Origin: the human T2T-CHM13v2.0 reference genome, Homo sapiens | Assembly (NCBI GenBank): GCA_009914755.4 | Contig: CP086569.2 | Coordinates: forward strand, 23,648,001-23,712,000 | Direction: 5' to 3' | Length of the DNA stretch: 64,000 nt | Shown: one piece after another, positions 1 through 32,779 of the stretch | How positions within the stretch are numbered: the first letter of the stretch is position 1 | Layout: every line of letters begins with the position of its first letter | Notes under the pieces: generated by a model | The model's input: only the letters and a program-made list of their open reading frames with translations | Databases searched by the model: none | Told to the model about the DNA's origin: nothing | Position numbers and translations under genes: made by a program

Positions 1-2397
1 TGTGGATCCCACAAATAGAATTTTAACTCTCATAAATTTCTTTAGAGACACGAGTAATTAAATCCCTATCTGGTAAAAAAACAAGGTCAAAGAAAATTAT
101 AACAGCCTCACATATTTTTTAAAGCCTTTGGCTTGTACCGAGTGTGTCATAACAGAAACCAGCAGAAAGATGAAACTGTGAGTCTCAAATGCACACCCAG
201 CTGACAGTAAGTACTATCAACATCTCACATATATGAAGCTAACTGTCACTCATGAAAATGGGACATGTGCAATATTGTAAATCTCATCCTGGGAATTTTC
301 TGCTAGTGTTATTGTGATACAAATCTTCACCAAACATCTGTGTGATTTAATCCACCATAATGGTTCTAGCCCGCATATCTTATTGCGGTATCTACCTGGG
401 CCTACCTCTACATGATACTGATACAAGTGATATGTTACTGCCTGGGTCCTGCTCTCAGTAAGAATCGTGACATATTACTAGATCCAGCACCTTGGTCATG
501 TTAAATTTTTGCCTTAGCCATGCCCACAGAGATTATTGTGACATATCACTGTGTCAACTACTTAGGTGATGTAACTCTCCTTGTTAGAATGGGCCCTGCA
601 CACAATTGGGGATTGTGACATATGGTTGGGCCAGGCACACTGGTGACAGTACTCTTTTGTTAGAGCCATGTCCTAAAGAATGCATTGTGACAAATCTCTG
701 GGCTGATCACTTAGGTGATGTTGCTCTCCTGCTTGGGTCCTGCTTTCCTGAATAGTGACATATTACTACACTAGGCATATAAGTGATGGTACTCTTTTGC
801 CAGGGTCATGTCTCAAGGAGAACATTGCAACATATCTCTGTGCCTATCGCCTGGGTAACGCAACTCCCTGCTTCAGCATGGCCCACAAAGAGCATTGTGA
901 CATAAAGGTAGAACCTACACCTATTTGTTGTAAATCTCTTGTCTGAGTCTTGTCCTAAGTGAAACTTGTGACATATCTCAGGAATCAGGATCAAGGCGGT
1001 GTGACTCTTCTGCCTGGCTTCACCTCACATGTTAGATTTTTTTCATATACCTAGGGAAGCACCTAGGTGATATGACTTTTCTCTTCTGCCTTAGCCTTGC
1101 TTATTTTGGACATTGGGTCATATATTTGAGCCAGTATCCTAACTGACGTAATTCTTTTCTTCTGTCTGAGCCTTTACAATGGGGTGATGTGACATATTGC
1201 TAAGCCAAATACTCAGGTTATATGGCTTTTCTTTTTTTTTTTCTCCCAAAAAGTGTCCAGGAAAAGGAATTTTGATTTACTGCAGGGCCCAGCACCCAGA
1301 TGATGTTCCTCTTCATCCTGAGTCCTGCATAAAGAGAGAATTATGGCATATGGCTCCGCCCCCAACCCTGATGCTGTAACTCTCTTGCCTGTGCCAGAGC
1401 AACAGAAAGTATTTTTACAATTCTTGGGCACACCCAGTAGGAGTTTTTATTCTCATCATTTGTCTGTTTTTTTTTTCTTTTGGGGAGGTGGATTGTGTCA
1501 TATTGCTAGGTCCAGCACCCAGTTAATGTAACCCTCATTTCTAGAACCCTACCTAGAGAAGGCATTGTGACATATTGCCTGGCAAAGCACCTACGTTGTG
1601 CTACTCTCCTGGCTAGTTTTTTCTTTTTTCCTACAAATGGGATTATGAAATTTACATGATTCAATTCAGAGGCATGATGATCAAAGTTATATTTGTTTTC
1701 CACCAATAGTAACATTTGCCTATCACCTCTCCACGCAGGGCAATACTTAAAGTTGTGAGTTGCATAGTGGCAGAAAGCTCACAGCAGCTTACAACGCTAA
1801 CTCATATTCTAAAAACTGCTTGGGCCCAGCCAGAGATTAAGATCATGACTCTTGATTACACATACAGGTGAGTGCAAAACTTTTCAGCATCCCATATTTA
1901 CAAAGTCAGCTGTTAAAGTCCTGAGTATAAGTAAATAAAGTACAAAGTTGAAATTTTGACTGTCATATGTGGATCTTGCTATAGGTGAGATGGTGACTAT
2001 TTTCTGGACCCAGATCACAGGCATAATAATGGGTCTCCTGTCTGAACCCAGCCTATTAGAGAGGTGTTGGCAATCATAACTGGGTTTAAGGCAATATGTA
2101 AGATTGTGAGTGAATATAAGCATGTAGGCCTCAGAGTGGTTTGTAACTCTCATGCATGTTGCATAAAGCCTCTGGATGTTGTAGAGTGTGTCATATAATG
2201 ATGTAGAACACGTGTAAGGTTGTGACTGTAATATACATATCAAGCTAAAAGTTAAAGGTGTCACCTAAAAGATGAGGAGATTGTGTCATATTACCAGACC
2301 TAGTACCCTGGTGTTGAGATTTCTGTCTTAAATTCTTTACCACGGGTGCGTTGTGAAATATTACTCTGTGTGTATGTGTTTATGTGTGTTTGTGTAT

Positions 2398-2406
2398 ATA
2401 TATATA

Positions 2407-2444
<38 letters not shown>
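2398..2444. repeat. (GT)n/(TG)n microsatellite embedded in a copy-specific ~200 bp segment of one HOR copy
   Basis: gtgtgtgtgtgtgtgtgtgtgtgtgtgtgtgt run. The paralogous HOR copies (e.g. ~6780, ~12080, ~14990) lack this segment. Confidence 0.9.
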
Positions 2445-29400: not shown

Positions 29401-31985
29401 AGGTTACGGGACTCTCCTCTACCCTCTACTGCCTGTATTCTGCTTCCTTTGGTAATTGTAGCATTTCTAAACACTGCACCCAAGTGATATGACTACTGTG
29501 CTTGGGCCCTGTTAACAGGAGGCATTGTTACAAATTTTTGGGCCCACCATTTAGGTGAAATGTCTCTACTCTCCTGCTCTGACACCTCACACAAAGGACA
29601 CTGTGCAACATATTTGGACCTAGCACAAAAGTTTGGTGGCATTTCTGACAAAGCTTTGCCTACAAAGAGAATATTGGAATAATTCTGGCCCGGCATTTCA
29701 ATAATATGGCTGTTCCACCTGCTTCATAGCCATACAGAGGATTGTAATATGTACCTAGGCATGGTTCAAAGGAATGATGATGATTGTCATATGGGGATTC
29801 AGCTAACAGAGGTTATTTTGACTCTTATAACCAAGTTTAGGTACATGCATGATATCCTGAATAACGTTCTTATACAAATGCCACAAAAGATTACAACATT
29901 CGCATATATTTTACAAAGTCTTTGGGTTATAGAGACAGAGTTGTAGCAGGGCTCAGAACACAGGTTAAATTGTGAGTCTTGCATGCACACCCAGCTGACA
30001 GTAAAGGCTGTCATCATCTCACACGGATAAAGCCAAATGTCACACATGAAAAAAAGGATATGTGGGGTACTGTAAATCTCACCTTTGCAATTATCTGACA
30101 CTGTGATTGTGATATAAATCTTTGCCAAGCACCTGTATAATTTGACTCTGCAGACTTATTCCGGCCCAAATATGGTATTGTGCTATCTAGCTAGGCCAAC
30201 CTCAAGGTGATGTTATTCTCCTGCCTGGGCCCTTCTCTAAGTAAGGATGGTGACATACATCTGAATCTAGCACCCAGCTGATGTTACATTCTTGCCTGTG
30301 CCATGTCCACCAAAATTATTGCATATATTTCTATGCCCCCATTATAGGTGATGTATCTCTGCTCTCTGGAATGGGCCATACACAAAGGATGGATAATGAC
30401 ATATTGCAAGGCCAGGCACACAGTTGAGGGTACTATTTTGCCAAAGCCATGTTCAAGGGAGGGCACTGTGATTTATATCCAGGCCTGTCACCTGGGTTAT
30501 ATGGCTCTCCTGCTTGGGCCTTGCCAACCTGGAGTAATATATTTCTAGGCCAGGCACACAGTTGATGGTACTCTTTTGCCAGGACTATACTTCATAGAGG
30601 ACATTGTGACATACCTTGGGGTCTACCGCCTAGATGAAGTGGCTCCCTCCTTTAGACCTACCCAAATAAAACATTGTGGAATAAGCAGAAAATCTACACC
30701 TAGATGATGTAACTCTTTGCTGGGTGCTGTCCTAAGAGAGCCTTGTGACATATCTCAGGACCCAGCACCCAAGTGATGTGGCTCCCCTACCTGGTTTCTG
30801 TCTATGTGTTACATTGTGACATATTTCTAGGGAAGCACGTAGATGATATGACTCTCCTCATCTACCTGAGCCTCGCCTACTGGAGATATTGGACATATCT
30901 CTGAGCCCATGACCTAAGTGATATGATGTTCTTTGTCTGCCTGGACCTTCACAATAGAAGGATTTTGGCACATTGCTGAGCCCAGCACTCAGGATAGGTG
31001 ACTCACCTCTTTTTCCTAATCCATGCCCACAAAATAACAAATTTTGACTTATTGCATGGCCCAGCACCCAGATGATGTTACTCTTTAGTGTGGGTTCTGC
31101 ATAAAGAAAAATTGATGGCATATTGCATATTGCTGGGCCCAGCACCCTTACAATGTGTCTCTCCTGCCTATACTGGAGCCACCGAAGGTTTTTGTTTGTT
31201 TGTTTGTTTGTTTGTTTTGACATATCTTGGGCCCACTATGTAGGTGTTTTGGCTCTCATAACTTGGCTGGATTTTTTCCACAAGTGGGACGGTATCATAT
31301 TGCTGGGTTGAGTACCCAGCTAATGTGACCCAATTTATCATACCCTGCCTAGAGAAGGCATTGTGACACAGCATCACAAGGCACTGTGACACAGTATCTA
31401 AGTGATGTTACCCTCCTGCCTAGTTTTATGCCCACAAATAGGATTATGACATATACCTTGCTTCAATTCACAGGCATGATGATCAAACTTATATTTGGAT
31501 TCAGCCAATAGGAGATATTTTGCCTCTCATTGCTAAGCTTAGGGCAATAGATAAACTCTGGGGTTGCATATATATTCAAAGCTGACAGAAGCTTACAACA
31601 CTAACTTATATTGTATAACCTCTTTGTTGGTAGGGAGTTTCACAACAGGACCCCACAAAAAGATTAGATTGGGACTTTCAGTTATGCACCCAGGTGAAAT
31701 TACAAGTTTTCACCATCCCACATTTACAAAGCCCACTTTTGAAGTCCTGAGTGTAACAAGGAAATACAGCAGAGGTGGAATTGTGACTTTTATATGTTGA
31801 TCTGGCCACATGTGGAAAGATGACTCATTTCTGGACCCAGCCCACAGACATAATAATGGGTCTTCTCCCTTAACCCTGACTATAGGAGAGATGTTGACTA
31901 TCAAACTTAGGCTTAGGACAATATGTAAGATTGTAAGTCCATATGAGCACCTAGGCCTCAGAGAGGTTTACAATCTTCATGGAGG

Positions 31986-32315
31986 TTTTTTTCTTTTTTT
32001 TCTTTTTTTTTTCTTTTTTTTTTTTTTTCTTGAGATGAACTCTCACTCTGTCACCCAGGCTGGAGTGCAGTGATGTGATCTCAGCTTACTGTGACATCTT
32101 TCCTATGAGTTCAAGCGATTCTTTTGCCTCAGCTTCCAAAGTAGCTGGGATTAAAGGTGCCTGCCACCACATCTGGCCAATTTTTTGTATTTTTAGTAGA
32201 TACGGGGTTTCACCATCTTGGTCAGATGGGTCTTGAACTCCTGACCTCGTGATCTACCCACCTCAGCCTCCCAAAGTGCTGGGATTACAGGCATGAGCCA
32301 CCATACCTTGCCTCT
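31986..32315 (-). mobile_element. Alu inserted into the beta-satellite
   Basis: T-rich tail complement 31986-32030, then cttgagatgaactctcactctgtcacccaggctggagtgcag...gggattacaggcatgagccaccataccttgcc. The paralogous copy ~11870-11900 (catgaaggttttgtaagttcctcagatgttgt) is uninterrupted. Confidence 0.85.
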
Positions 32316-32779
32316 TCCTGCAGGTTTTATAAAGCCCTGAGATGTTGTACAGAGTTTCATATATTGACCCAGCTCACATGTTTCTAATATACACCCTCAC
32401 CTAAAAGTTAAAAGTGTCAACCTCAAAAATCATGAGATTGTGTCATGTCACTGGGCCTAATATCGAGGTGTTGTGAGATTGTGGCTTAATTTTTTTTTCC
32501 ATGGGCGCATTCTTACATATCACTTGGTCAGAATAATAATAATGTTACTCTTTTGCAGGAGCCTTGTCAACAGGGGATATTATCACATATCGCTGGGCCT
32601 ATCAGCTAGGTGATATGCCTCTCCAGCCCGTGCTCAACCCCCTGAGGACATTTAGAAATATCGCTGAAACTAGCATCTAGGAAGTGTAATTCTCTTCCCC
32701 TGCCTGAGTATTGCTTGTCAAAGGAATTGTGACATATGATTGATTACAAAACCTAGGTGGTATTTCTCTCTTCTCCATT

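What the first reader, a model, noticed from the sequence alone, without database searches (positions are those of the whole stretch)
1..32775. Beta-satellite array with a composite higher-order repeat of ~3 kb and 6.2-6.8 kb expanded variants
The ~68-bp monomers are organised into two recurring multi-monomer blocks. Block X is marked by ..AGAGAATATTGGAATATTTCTGGC.. and a ~600-bp characteristic stretch; copies start near 1 (partial), 2949, 9119, 12450, 22853 and 29672. Block Y is marked by ..CCCACAAATGGGATTATGACATATACC..; copies start near 1605, 4680, 6350 (internally deleted), 11310, 14245, 24530, 26600 and 31420. Along the array the order is X-Y-X-Y-Y'-X-Y-X-Y...X-Y-Y-X-Y. The basic X+Y period is ~2.9-3.3 kb (X to X: 2968 to ~0, 9131 to 12466; Y to Y: 11325 to 14260). 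Longer units of ~6.2 kb (2968 to 9131) and ~6.8 kb (22872 to 29685) carry an extra Y-containing segment. Copies are clearly diverged, roughly 10-20% by eye, so the array is old and not recently homogenised. Copy-specific indels occur, e.g. a (GT)n-containing ~200-bp segment at 2360-2560 and a 65-bp monomer duplication at ~13795-13930.
Basis: seen in the sequence. Interest (0 to 1): 0.5.

Follow-up and report, generated by a model that had tools for sequence, protein, structure and literature searches.

The report
Old decayed beta-satellite-type repeat array
Bases 1-32,775 are an ancient, heavily mutated relative of human beta-satellite DNA, built by several nested rounds of tandem duplication and later invaded by retroelements; this kind of block is already known from primate zinc-finger gene clusters, so it is real but ordinary.

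Summary
Window 1-32,775 is one head-to-tail array, entirely on the + strand, that stops exactly at 32,775.

Corrections:
- The monomer is 71 bp, with a second class of 74-77 bp, not 68 bp.
- Copies differ by 19-33%, not 10-20%.
- There is a third block type, Z.
- The best description is not "a 3 kb HOR with variants". It is a ~12-14 kb super-unit, (X-Y-Z)(X-Y-Y-Z)(X-Y), present twice at 78% identity, whose internal sub-units are only ~70% alike.

The monomer is homologous to the canonical 68-bp beta satellite, which I recovered from public contigs. It lacks the Sau3A site, has 42% GC and is CpG-depleted. Each block also carries a 300-680 bp divergent "D" stretch. The D stretches were found only in 71/76-bp arrays at other loci.

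A HERV-K provirus, a solo LTR and three Alus each interrupt a single copy. A dead zinc-finger exon lies 21 kb downstream. This fits the beta-satellite blocks reported among the 19p12 KRAB-ZNF genes, but the chromosome could not be checked. Already known; low interest.

The parts
1..32775 (+). Whole array of beta-satellite-type monomers (71 and 74-77 bp). It is cut by the window start and ends at 32,775 against an L1-like fragment.
   Evidence: 207 monomer-profile hits, all on the + strand, the last ending at 32,775 and none beyond. Sequence at the boundary was read.
1..12337 (+). Super-unit I: sub-units (X1-Y1-Z1 partial) 1-2915, (X2-Y2a-Y2b-Z2) 2916-8809, (X3-Y3) 8810-12337.
   Evidence: Reference-unit mapping. 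Colinear alignment to super-unit II at 78.0% over 11,464 positions.
12338..32775 (+). Super-unit II: sub-units (X4-Y4-Z4) 12338-17214, (X5-Y5a-Y5b-Z5) 22537-29355, (X6-Y6) 29356-32775.
22552..24415 (+). Block X, best-preserved copy (X5). Other copies: 1-1490, 2916-4562, 8810-11175 (interrupted by the solo LTR), 12338-14096, 29356-31266. Each has a ~300 bp divergent D stretch followed by ~13 canonical monomers.
   Evidence: Partner identities X1-X4 78.1%, X2-X5 80.1%, X3-X6 79.3%; other X pairs 69-73%. Monomer content of the X consensus.
24416..25545 (+). Block Y (copy Y5a). Other copies: 1491-2362, 4563-5379, 6233-7096 (326 bp internal deletion), 11176-12323, 14097-15022, 26489-27641, 31267-31985 plus 32313-32775. 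Each contains two tandem D cores 379 bp apart.
   Evidence: Partner identities 78.1-81.9%, against 70.7-76.1% for other pairs. D duplication within Y. Deletion in Y2b.
27682..29355 (+). Block Z (copy Z5), the third block type. Other copies: 2537-2915 (truncated), 7191-8809, 15717-17214.
   Evidence: Z2-Z5 78.4% and Z1-Z4 76.1%, others 70-73%. In its 3' half, 76-bp spacings recur among 71-73 bp ones.
17215..22536 (-). Internally deleted HERV-K-type provirus inserted at the Z4/X5 junction. Target-site duplication GTGATT(T) at 17209 and 22537.
   Evidence: Pfam Gag_p10, Gag_p24, RVT_thumb, RNase_H and HERV-K_env_2. LTR ends 17215-17460 versus 21528-21780 are 86% identical. Junction alignment to the uninterrupted paralogues at 8798/8810 and 29343/29356.
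10350..10828 (.). 479-bp insertion with TG...CA ends, an AATAAA signal and a 6-bp target-site duplication TTGGGA: a solo-LTR-like element, private to X3.
   Evidence: Sequence read. Duplication positions 10344 and 10829. Absent from the partners. No other copy in the window.
15023..15331 (+). Alu insertion, private to this copy.
26126..26465 (-). Alu insertion, private to this copy.
   Evidence: Absent at 6223/6233 in the partner.
31986..32312 (-). Alu insertion with a poly-T head, private to this copy.
   Evidence: Absent at ~11,880 in the partner.
2363..2536 (+). (GT)n-containing filler that takes the place of ~0.7 kb (Y tail plus Z head) present in the partner copy.
   Evidence: TRF finds (TG)37 at 2367-2442. 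Gap list of the super-unit alignment.

Best explanation
This is a fossil satellite array: a divergent, ancient member of the beta-satellite superfamily, of the kind reported between KRAB zinc-finger genes in 19p12.

**How it was built (inferred order)**

It was built by nested rounds of tandem duplication, probably by unequal crossing-over.
1. A ~35-bp half-unit became the 71-bp monomer, with a 74-77-bp variant.
2. Runs of monomers together with a ~230-bp divergent 'D' core formed ~1.2-1.7 kb blocks.
3. These blocks diversified into types X, Y and Z.
4. The blocks were arranged as three unequal sub-units, (X-Y-Z), (X-Y-Y-Z) and (X-Y).
5. That ~12-14 kb super-unit was duplicated once in tandem.

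**What happened afterwards**
- Homogenisation stopped.
- The copies drifted apart to 78% identity between partner blocks and about 70% between other copies of a block type.
- CpGs decayed.
- Single copies were hit by three Alus, a solo LTR, a HERV-K provirus and several deletions.

**Status of each step**
- Shown: the hierarchy, the homology to the canonical beta satellite, the insertions and their private status.
- Inferred: the order and mechanism of the duplications, and the absolute ages. Assuming ~2.3e-9 substitutions per site per year, these are roughly 30 My for the provirus, ~55 My for the super-unit duplication, and older for the sub-units.

The array has no coding or RNA function that I could detect. 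Its likely role is passive, as repeat-rich spacer or heterochromatin-prone DNA whose paralogous blocks could promote unequal exchange in a gene cluster.
For: **Periodicity and strandedness**
-.

**Hierarchy**
- Block-partner identities are 76-82%, against 69-76% for other copies of the same block.
- K2P distances are 0.247 for partners, 0.354 for non-partners and 0.139 for the provirus LTR ends.
- The two super-units align colinearly at 78.0%.
- The monomer best match falls at the partner offset for 76 of 167 monomers, against 8.9 by chance.

**Blocks and half-repeat**
- X, Y and Z share a D core at 68-76% identity, and Y holds two copies.
- The weak monomer-profile hits inside D suggest degenerate monomers.
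- The monomer has an internal half-repeat, 24 of 33 positions identical, with autocorrelation peaks at 36 and 38 bp.

**Homology to beta satellite**
- The canonical 68-bp consensus was recovered by TRF from public contigs.
- It aligns to the window consensus at 54 of 71 columns, score 35 against -1.3 +/- 3.1 for shuffles.
- The window-derived profile finds 3,239 monomers at 68/69-bp spacing in those canonical arrays.

**Same array type elsewhere**
- 23 contigs have 71/76-bp periodicity, low GATC and 43-48% GC.
- D segments hit 21 of those 23 contigs and none of the other 87.

**Decay**
- CpG observed/expected is 0.14 and GC is 42.5%.

**Private transposon insertions**
-.

**Context**
- L1 elements, Alus and a dead C2H2 finger exon lie at ~54,230-55,190 on the minus strand.

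**Literature**
- The 19p12 KRAB-ZNF cluster is interspersed with beta-satellite blocks (PMC3018141).
- Beta satellite is listed on chromosome 19 (PMC8125562).
- Both cite Eichler et al. 1998.
Against: - Three textbook features of beta satellite are not met. The period is 71/76 bp instead of 68. There is no Sau3A site per monomer. GC is 42% instead of the 47-52% reported.
- No RepeatMasker or Dfam classification could be run.
- The chromosomal position could not be checked.
- The nearby zinc-finger remnant is too decayed to assign. Its best-identity hits, at 52%, carry ZNF429-like and ZNF679 names, and those genes lie on different chromosomes (gene locations from my own knowledge).
- Only one block, in one orientation, is in the window. 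The inverted paired blocks that I recall from the 1998 description are not seen here.
- Absolute ages depend on an assumed rate and are inflated by CpG decay and alignment uncertainty.
Confidence: 0.85

Rival explanations
1. It is a canonical, currently homogenising beta-satellite HOR array such as those on acrocentric short arms, 1q12, 9q12 or Yq11, with a ~3 kb HOR.
For: The monomers are homologous to the canonical 68-bp unit, and multi-monomer repeats exist.
Against: - Copies are only 67-82% identical.
- TRF cannot detect the monomer array here, yet it finds the 68-bp arrays in the canonical contigs tested.
- The period is 71/76 bp, GATC occurs 0.14 times per unit, and GC is 42.5%.
- Five old transposon insertions interrupt the array.
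- The array abuts ordinary L1/Alu-rich DNA and a zinc-finger pseudogene.
Confidence: 0.03
2. It is an independent ~71-bp satellite family that resembles beta satellite only by chance or convergence, so it should not be filed under beta satellite at all.
For: Period, restriction site and base composition all differ from the definition of beta satellite. The D segments have no counterpart in the canonical arrays sampled.
Against: - The consensus-to-consensus alignment scores about 11 standard deviations above shuffles.
- A profile built only from window monomers recovers 3,239 canonical monomers in correct 68/69-bp register.
- The conserved stretches (ATATGTCACAATG, AGAGT.ACATCACCT) are shared, which is how the public contigs of both classes were found with one pattern.
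Confidence: 0.05
3. It is a beta-satellite/LSau composite of the D4Z4 or DUX type, with the D segments being LSau elements.
For: Beta-composite arrays with interspersed non-monomer elements are a known class (bioRxiv 10.1101/2021.07.12.452052; PMC2671837). This array also alternates monomer runs with non-canonical stretches.
Against: - The D segments match none of the 87 non-class-B contigs, which include those with 58-67% GC that I take, without testing, to be LSau composites.
- The D segments carry weak, partly in-register monomer-profile hits.
- ORFs were listed only for the provirus region (17,000-22,800) and for 32,776-64,000. A homeobox ORF in the satellite part of the array was therefore not looked for.
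Confidence: 0.03
4. The long off-diagonals are just a recent segmental duplication of unique DNA, and the monomer periodicity is illusory.
For: TRF reports no monomer array. Only ~45% of bases fall in significant monomer hits.
Against: - 158 of the 206 spacings between successive monomer hits fall at 60-85 bp, with a sharp mode at 71, and all hits are on one strand.
- Autocorrelation peaks at 71, 76, 140 and 147 bp occur inside the array and not outside it.
- Block consensus sequences show 13 consecutive monomers in register.
- Identities of 67-82% are not recent.
Confidence: 0.01

Closest known systems
Beta-satellite blocks interspersed in the 19p12 KRAB zinc-finger (ZNF91-type) gene cluster (Eichler et al. 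1998, Genome Res 8:791; cited in PMC3018141, PMC8125562 and PMC2671837)
   Same: - A diverged beta-satellite-type array with complex higher-order structure.
- Size: at least 27.4 kb once insertions are removed, in the 25-30 kb range I recall from that paper's abstract.
- Embedded in L1/Alu-rich euchromatin next to a C2H2 finger exon. That exon's highest-identity relatives carry ZNF429-like and ZNF679 names, which from my own knowledge belong to the ZNF91-type subfamily.
- Old: internal K2P of 0.25-0.35.
   Different: - Only one block, in one orientation, is in the window. The paired inverted blocks are not seen.
- The neighbouring zinc-finger sequence is a dead fragment with no KRAB exon in the window.
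- Chromosomal location is untested.
- The paper itself was not available, so I could not compare its monomer length or HOR map with mine.
Canonical beta satellite (Sau3A family, BSR/Beta; 68-bp unit; Waye and Willard 1989)
   Same: Homologous monomer, 54 of 71 consensus columns identical. Head-to-tail arrays with multi-monomer higher-order units.
   Different: - 71/76-bp rather than 68/69-bp period.
- The GATC site is replaced by GGGCCC in the consensus.
- GC is 42% against 46-53% in the canonical contigs sampled here.
- Monomers are 57% rather than ~76% alike.
- Divergent D segments are present.
- No recent homogenisation.
Beta-composite arrays (beta satellite plus LSau, as in D4Z4 and the DUXY locus)
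   Same: Alternation of monomer runs with a non-canonical element in a kb-scale repeat (PMC2671837; 10.1101/2021.07.12.452052).
   Different: The D element is a different sequence and matched none of the non-class-B contigs sampled. No DUX gene was noticed, but the array itself was not scanned for one.

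Membership tests
Beta satellite (Sau3A family, BSR/Beta) | Head-to-tail tandem monomers of ~68 bp | tested here: not met
   The array is tandem and single-stranded in orientation. 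However, spacing has a mode of 71 bp (70-72) with a second mode at 74-77 bp; only 6 of 158 spacings equal 68. Canonical contigs give 68/69 bp.
Beta satellite (Sau3A family, BSR/Beta) | Monomer sequence homologous to the canonical consensus | tested here: met
   The canonical consensus from TRF on public contigs aligns to the window consensus at 54 of 71 columns, score 35 against -1.3 +/- 3.1 for shuffles. The window profile detects 3,239 canonical monomers in register.
Beta satellite (Sau3A family, BSR/Beta) | A Sau3A (GATC) site in nearly every monomer (10.1101/589531) | tested here: not met
   54 GATC sites in 27,439 bp, or 0.14 per monomer, against ~0.8-1.1 per unit in the canonical contigs with 46-53% GC.
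Beta satellite (Sau3A family, BSR/Beta) | Relatively GC-rich, ~47-52% (10.1101/589531; 10.1101/2021.07.12.452052) | tested here: not met
   GC is 42.5% and CpG observed/expected is 0.14. This is compatible with long CpG decay of a once richer sequence, which is an inference.
Beta satellite (Sau3A family, BSR/Beta) | Monomers organised in higher-order repeats | tested here: met
   Nested higher-order structure: the monomer best match is 80% against a 57% mean, and lies at the partner offset for 76 of 167 monomers. The copies are not homogenised.
Beta satellite (Sau3A family, BSR/Beta) | RepeatMasker/Dfam assignment to BSR/Beta | not testable with these tools
19p12 ZNF-cluster beta-satellite blocks (Eichler 1998) | Block of roughly 25-30 kb with complex higher-order structure | tested here: inconclusive
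   The array is at least 27.4 kb without insertions, but it is cut by the window start. The size range is recalled from the abstract, because the paper is not held.
19p12 ZNF-cluster beta-satellite blocks (Eichler 1998) | Lies beside a ZNF91-type KRAB zinc-finger gene or pseudogene | tested here: inconclusive
   A degenerate C2H2 finger array with stops and a frameshift lies at ~54,230-55,190 on the minus strand (Pfam zf-H2C2_2, E = 1.4e-29). Its highest-identity hits, at 52%, are named ZNF429-like and ZNF679, but the hit list is generic. No KRAB motif was found in the window.
19p12 ZNF-cluster beta-satellite blocks (Eichler 1998) | Paired blocks in inverted orientation flanking the gene | tested here: not met
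   All 207 monomers are on the + strand and none lie in 32,776-64,000. The window may simply be too short to hold the second block.
19p12 ZNF-cluster beta-satellite blocks (Eichler 1998) | Maps to 19p12 | not testable with these tools
   No human or primate genome assembly is searchable here.
Beta-composite (beta satellite plus LSau, D4Z4 type) | Interspersed LSau element and DUX homeobox ORF | tested here: inconclusive
   The D segments hit none of the 87 contigs outside the 71/76-bp class, including the GC-rich ones that I presume, without testing, to be LSau composites. No LSau reference sequence was available. The satellite part of the array was not scanned for a DUX ORF.

The most novel reading that the evidence does not exclude
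The 71/76-bp, Sau3A-less arrays with their D segments may be a distinct and much older lineage than canonical 68-bp beta satellite. They recur at many loci: 23 of the 110 contigs sampled.

On this reading they are effectively a proto-beta satellite. Its X/Y/Z super-unit architecture would have been fixed before it was dispersed with zinc-finger gene cassettes.

If current annotation merely lumps these arrays under BSR/Beta, this would be an unrecognised subfamily. Its internal clock (K2P 0.25-0.35) would push the origin of beta-satellite-like DNA well before the ~25 My origin that I recall being proposed for the canonical family.
Probability: 0.15. Interest if true: 0.35.

Novelty: already known. 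Interest (0 to 1): 0.15.

Why it matters
It matters little beyond annotation.

- It shows how a dead satellite keeps a readable record of its own construction, across five nested levels of duplication. The private retroelement insertions act as time markers.
- It illustrates the repeat blocks thought to have helped a primate zinc-finger gene cluster expand.
- The practical lesson for the scan is that TRF alone misses such arrays. A profile built from anchor-spaced monomers recovers them.

Tried and rejected
- **TRF on the window.** It found no monomer array, because the monomers are too diverged. A de novo profile was used instead.
- **The primary description of the 19p12 blocks (Eichler 1998) and Waye and Willard 1989.** Neither paper is held.
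- **A printed beta-satellite consensus in the paper library.** None was found.
- **Scan of bacterial and archaeal genome contigs for a canonical beta-satellite pattern.** No hits. The metagenome scan then supplied both canonical and window-type arrays.
- **Protein search with the zinc-finger remnant.** It returned a generic C2H2 hit list that cannot place the locus.
- **KRAB-box motif search in all six frames.** Nothing found.
- **Rfam at gathering thresholds.** Nothing found.
- **Literature search for T2T annotation of chromosome 19 beta satellite.** No papers found.
- **BLAST of the 110 contigs against the window.** No copy is more than ~82% identical, so the window's own locus and species could not be pinned down.
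- **The idea that the 17.2-22.5 kb gap was part of the array.** Rejected: it is a HERV-K provirus with a target-site duplication.
- **The idea that the X and Y 'characteristic stretches' were foreign sequence.** Rejected: they share one D core and carry weak monomer signal.

Full report

Yes. I anchored on the recurrent motif TGTGACATAT and took the 93 anchor-to-anchor segments of 66-78 bp. From these I built a monomer profile with no outside information.

The consensus is 71 bp: TGTGACATATTGCTGGGCCCAGCACCTAGGTGATGTGACTCTCTTGCCTGGGCCCTGCCCACAGGAGACAT.

After iteration with nhmmer the profile gave 207 hits:
- All are on the + strand.
- None lie in 32,776-64,000, and none lie in 17,215-22,583.

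The spacing between successive hits has a sharp mode at 71 bp (70-72 bp: 85 cases) and a second mode at 74-77 bp (46 cases). Only 6 spacings are 68 bp. Base autocorrelation peaks at 71, 76, 140 and 147 bp inside the array and not outside it. Tandem Repeats Finder reports no monomer array at all, because the monomers are too diverged.

Self-BLAST and a 500-bp dot plot show long + strand off-diagonals of 0.4-2.8 kb at 67-79% identity.
- 3,090, 3,334 and 2,914 bp.
- 6,163 bp.
- 6,795-6,805 bp.

The marker motifs were found as follows:
- The X marker recurs at 2957, 12456, 22861 and 29666.
- The Y marker recurs at 4682, 6373, 14264, 24541, 26613 and 31431.
- None are expected in shuffled sequence for either motif.
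- The more diverged copies are recovered by alignment.

The copy-specific details also hold:
- (TG)n at 2367-2442.
- A 326-bp internal deletion in the Y copy at ~6,420.
- A one-monomer duplication at 13794-13864 / 13866-13938.

The monomer is 71/76 bp rather than 68 bp. Copies differ by 19-33% rather than 10-20%.

In a satellite, any monomer aligns to any other, so I tested the higher-order signal directly on 167 near-full-length monomers:

| Comparison | Identity |
|---|---|
| Monomer to monomer, mean | 57% |
| Monomer to neighbour | 56% |
| Monomer to consensus | 71% |
| Monomer to its best match | 80% |

The best match lies at one specific long-range offset for 76 of the 167 monomers, against 8.9 expected by chance.

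**2. What the structure really is**

I mapped a reference unit (22,552-29,356) onto the array. This shows three block types, not two:
- X, about 1.4-1.9 kb.
- Y, about 0.8-1.2 kb.
- Z, about 1.5-1.7 kb. Copies lie at 7191-8809, 15717-17214 and 27682-29355, with a truncated copy at 2537-2915.

The order along the array is (X1 Y1 Z1')(X2 Y2a Y2b Z2)(X3 Y3) | (X4 Y4 Z4)(X5 Y5a Y5b Z5)(X6 Y6).

Pairwise identities show that this is one super-unit present twice:

| Block type | Positional partner pairs | Other pairs of the same type |
|---|---|---|
| X | X1-X4 78.1%, X2-X5 80.1%, X3-X6 79.3% | 69-73% |
| Y | Y1-Y4 81.9%, Y2a-Y5a 79.0%, Y2b-Y5b 80.8%, Y3-Y6 78.1% | 71-76% |
| Z | Z1-Z4 76.1%, Z2-Z5 78.4% | 70-73% |

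With transposons removed, super-unit I (1-12,337) and super-unit II (12,338-32,775) align colinearly over 11,464 positions at 78.0% identity. The main differences are about 1.6 kb missing around Z1 and the 326-bp deletion in Y2b.

Kimura two-parameter distances are 0.247 for partner blocks and 0.354 for non-partner blocks, with a range of 0.29-0.42. The 6.2 and 6.8 kb 'expanded variants' are therefore the same middle sub-unit seen in both super-units. They are not independent expansions.

Below the block level, consensus sequences of X, Y and Z each consist of runs of canonical monomers plus a 300-680 bp stretch where the monomer profile gives only weak hits. X has 13 canonical monomers in a row.

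These stretches share a common core of about 200-230 bp, which I call D. The pairwise identities of the D stretches are:
- DX-DY: 76%.
- DX-DZ: 71%.
- DY-DZ: 68%.

Y holds two D cores 379 bp apart. D contains monomer-like motifs, for example TGTCATAACAGGGCCCAGCAC. I read it as a few strongly diverged monomers, which makes X, Y and Z ancient paralogues of one another.

The monomer itself is an old dimer:
- Its two halves align at 24 of 33 positions.
- Autocorrelation shows peaks at 36 and 38 bp.
- In the 3' half of the Z consensus, 76-bp spacings recur among 71-73-bp ones, consistent with ~147-bp dimers.

**3. Interruptions**

- **17,215-22,536.** An internally deleted HERV-K-type provirus on the minus strand.
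  - Pfam finds Gag_p10, Gag_p24, RVT_thumb, RNase_H and HERV-K_env_2.
  - The LTR ends match at 86%.
  - There is a lysine-tRNA-like primer-binding site next to 21,528, judged by comparison with a motif I recalled from memory.
  - GTGATT(T) is duplicated at 17,209 and 22,537.
  - The flanks are contiguous in the two uninterrupted paralogues.
- **10,350-10,828.** A 479-bp element with TG...CA ends, an AATAAA signal and a 6-bp duplication TTGGGA. It is a solo-LTR-like insertion.
- **Alus.** At 15,023-15,331 (+), 26,126-26,465 (-) and 31,986-32,312 (-).

Every one of these insertions is absent from the partner copy. All therefore post-date the super-unit duplication. The LTR-LTR distance of 0.139 is about half the partner-block distance.

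**4. Is it beta satellite?**

No repeat library was available and no paper in the library printed a consensus. I therefore searched public metagenome contigs for two short stretches conserved between the window monomer and the beta-satellite unit as I remembered it. This returned 110 contigs, evidently host DNA in host-associated samples; one is titled as a human gut metagenome.

The contigs fall into two classes:

| Feature | 87 contigs | 23 contigs ('class B') | This window |
|---|---|---|---|
| Period | 68, 69 or 137 bp | 71, 76, 146 or 38 bp | 71 and 74-77 bp |
| GC | about 46-67% | 43-48% | 42.5% |
| GATC per unit | about 1 in those with 46-53% GC | 0-0.27 | 0.14 |
| Autocorrelation | strong in the 46-53% GC group, weaker in the GC-rich contigs | weak | weak |

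The rest of the 87-contig class is GC-rich, about 54-67% GC. I presume these are LSau composites, but I did not test that.

TRF on three of the 68-bp arrays gave the consensus GATCAGTGCAGAGATATGTCACAATGCCCCTGTAGGCAGAGCCTAGACAAGAGTTACATCACCTGGGT. This has the 68-bp period and the one-Sau3A-site-per-unit signature by which the literature defines beta satellite (10.1101/589531; 10.1101/2021.07.12.452052).

The evidence for homology is:
- The window's 71-bp consensus aligns to the canonical consensus at 54 of 71 columns, score 35 against -1.3 +/- 3.1 for shuffles.
- The window-only profile finds 3,239 monomers at 68/69-bp spacing in the canonical contigs, and 633 monomers at 71/76-bp spacing in class B.

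So the array is homologous to beta satellite, but it fails three of the family's textbook descriptors:
- Period.
- Sau3A site: the window has 0.14 GATC per monomer, and GGGCCC stands at that place in the consensus.
- GC content: 42.5%, with CpG observed/expected of 0.14.

The D segments match 21 of the 23 class-B contigs at 67-82% identity and none of the other 87. Several class-B contigs carry recognisable X, Y or Z sequence. The window therefore belongs to a recurrent, multi-locus array type: 71/76-bp monomers plus D segments.

**5. Context and comparison with what is known**

Downstream of 32,775 the window holds:
- Three L1 copies with endonuclease and reverse-transcriptase domains.
- Several Alus.
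- A C2H2 zinc-finger exon remnant at about 54,230-55,190 on the minus strand. It has stop codons and a frameshift and matches Pfam zf-H2C2_2 at E = 1.4e-29.

The remnant's highest-identity relatives, at 52%, are named ZNF429-like and ZNF679. From my own knowledge these belong to the ZNF91-type subfamily. The hit list is otherwise generic. No KRAB exon was seen and there is no Rfam hit.

The literature held here states two relevant things:
- Chromosome 19 is listed among beta-satellite locations (PMC8125562).

Both cite Eichler et al. 1998, which I could not read. From memory of its abstract, it describes ~25-30 kb beta-satellite blocks with a symmetrical higher-order structure bounding ZNF genes, and dates the cluster to early primate evolution.

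The present array fits that description in three respects: it is at least 27.4 kb without insertions, it has a complex nested structure, and it lies next to a dead zinc-finger exon. I could not verify the map position. I also see only one block, in one orientation.

**6. Mechanism**

The hierarchy is what repeated unequal exchange or tandem duplication would leave if homogenisation then ceased. The levels are half-unit, monomer, block, sub-unit and super-unit. The sequence directly shows three things:
- Graded identities of about 57% between monomers, about 70% between non-partner copies of a block type, and 78% between super-units.
- Private indels.
- Private transposons.

The mechanism and the dates are inferred. 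At an assumed 2.3e-9 substitutions per site per year, the dates are about 30 My for the provirus, about 55 My for the super-unit duplication, and older for the sub-units. They are probably inflated by CpG decay.

I found no sign of coding or structured-RNA function. A passive role as repeat-rich spacer that can mediate unequal exchange within a gene cluster is the published idea. It is not tested here.

**7. Verdict**

It needs the following refinements:
- The monomers are 71/76 bp.
- There are three block types.
- The top-level repeat is a duplicated 12-14 kb super-unit.
- The array belongs to a divergent, Sau3A-less branch of beta satellite.

The array belongs to a kind that has already been described, so interest is low.

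The only mildly novel possibility is that the 71/76-bp plus D arrays deserve recognition as a separate, older lineage. Testing this needs genome-wide and cross-species data.

Noticed in passing
window 17215-22536 (minus strand): Internally deleted HERV-K-type provirus with gag, RT-thumb/RNase H and env remnants, a lysine-like primer-binding site and a 6-7 bp target-site duplication. Only ~250 bp of the two LTRs align: the 3' LTR appears truncated, while the 5' LTR may span ~1 kb (21528-22536).
   Followed up: partly
window 10350-10828: 479-bp solo-LTR-like insertion (TG...CA ends, AATAAA signal, 6-bp duplication TTGGGA). It is unrelated to the provirus LTRs. The family could not be named without a repeat library.
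   Followed up: partly
window ~54230-55190 (minus strand): Degenerate C2H2 zinc-finger exon of ~11 fingers with in-frame stops and one frameshift. No KRAB-box motif was found anywhere in the window. Highest-identity database hits (52%) are named ZNF429-like and ZNF679.
   Followed up: partly
window 34908-38474 (-), 43731-48645 (+), 59343-64000 (+): Three L1 copies about 90% identical to one another, with endonuclease and reverse-transcriptase domains. The 43731-48406 / 59343-64000 pair is 91.3% identical over 4.7 kb at an offset of 15.6 kb. It could be two insertions of one subfamily or part of a larger local duplication.
   Followed up: no
window array monomers (consensus): The 71-bp monomer is itself an ancient dimer of ~33-38 bp halves (TGTGAC...TGGGCCC.GC.C..AGG; 24 of 33 positions identical; autocorrelation peaks at 36 and 38 bp). 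In parts of Z, 76-bp spacings recur among 71-73-bp ones, consistent with ~147-bp dimers.
   Followed up: partly
loci L007, L028, L031, L044, L051, L066, L082: Metagenome host-DNA contigs of the 71/76-bp class carry monomers on both strands in a similar ~33:9 split. This suggests an inversion junction inside such an array, sampled repeatedly. It is reminiscent of the inverted blocks reported for 19p12.
   Followed up: no
loci L043, L035, L061, L058, L076: Contigs from elsewhere carry recognisable X/Y D segments or Z blocks at 68-82% identity to the window. L043 matches X5 (79%) better than X2 (72%). This hints that the block types, and perhaps the sub-unit identities, predate dispersal of these arrays to several loci.
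   Followed up: partly
window 32776-33100: The array ends abruptly against sequence that by eye resembles the 3' part of L1 ORF2, followed by an Alu at ~33117-33390. It was not determined whether this is the true array edge or an insertion that removed more array.
   Followed up: no
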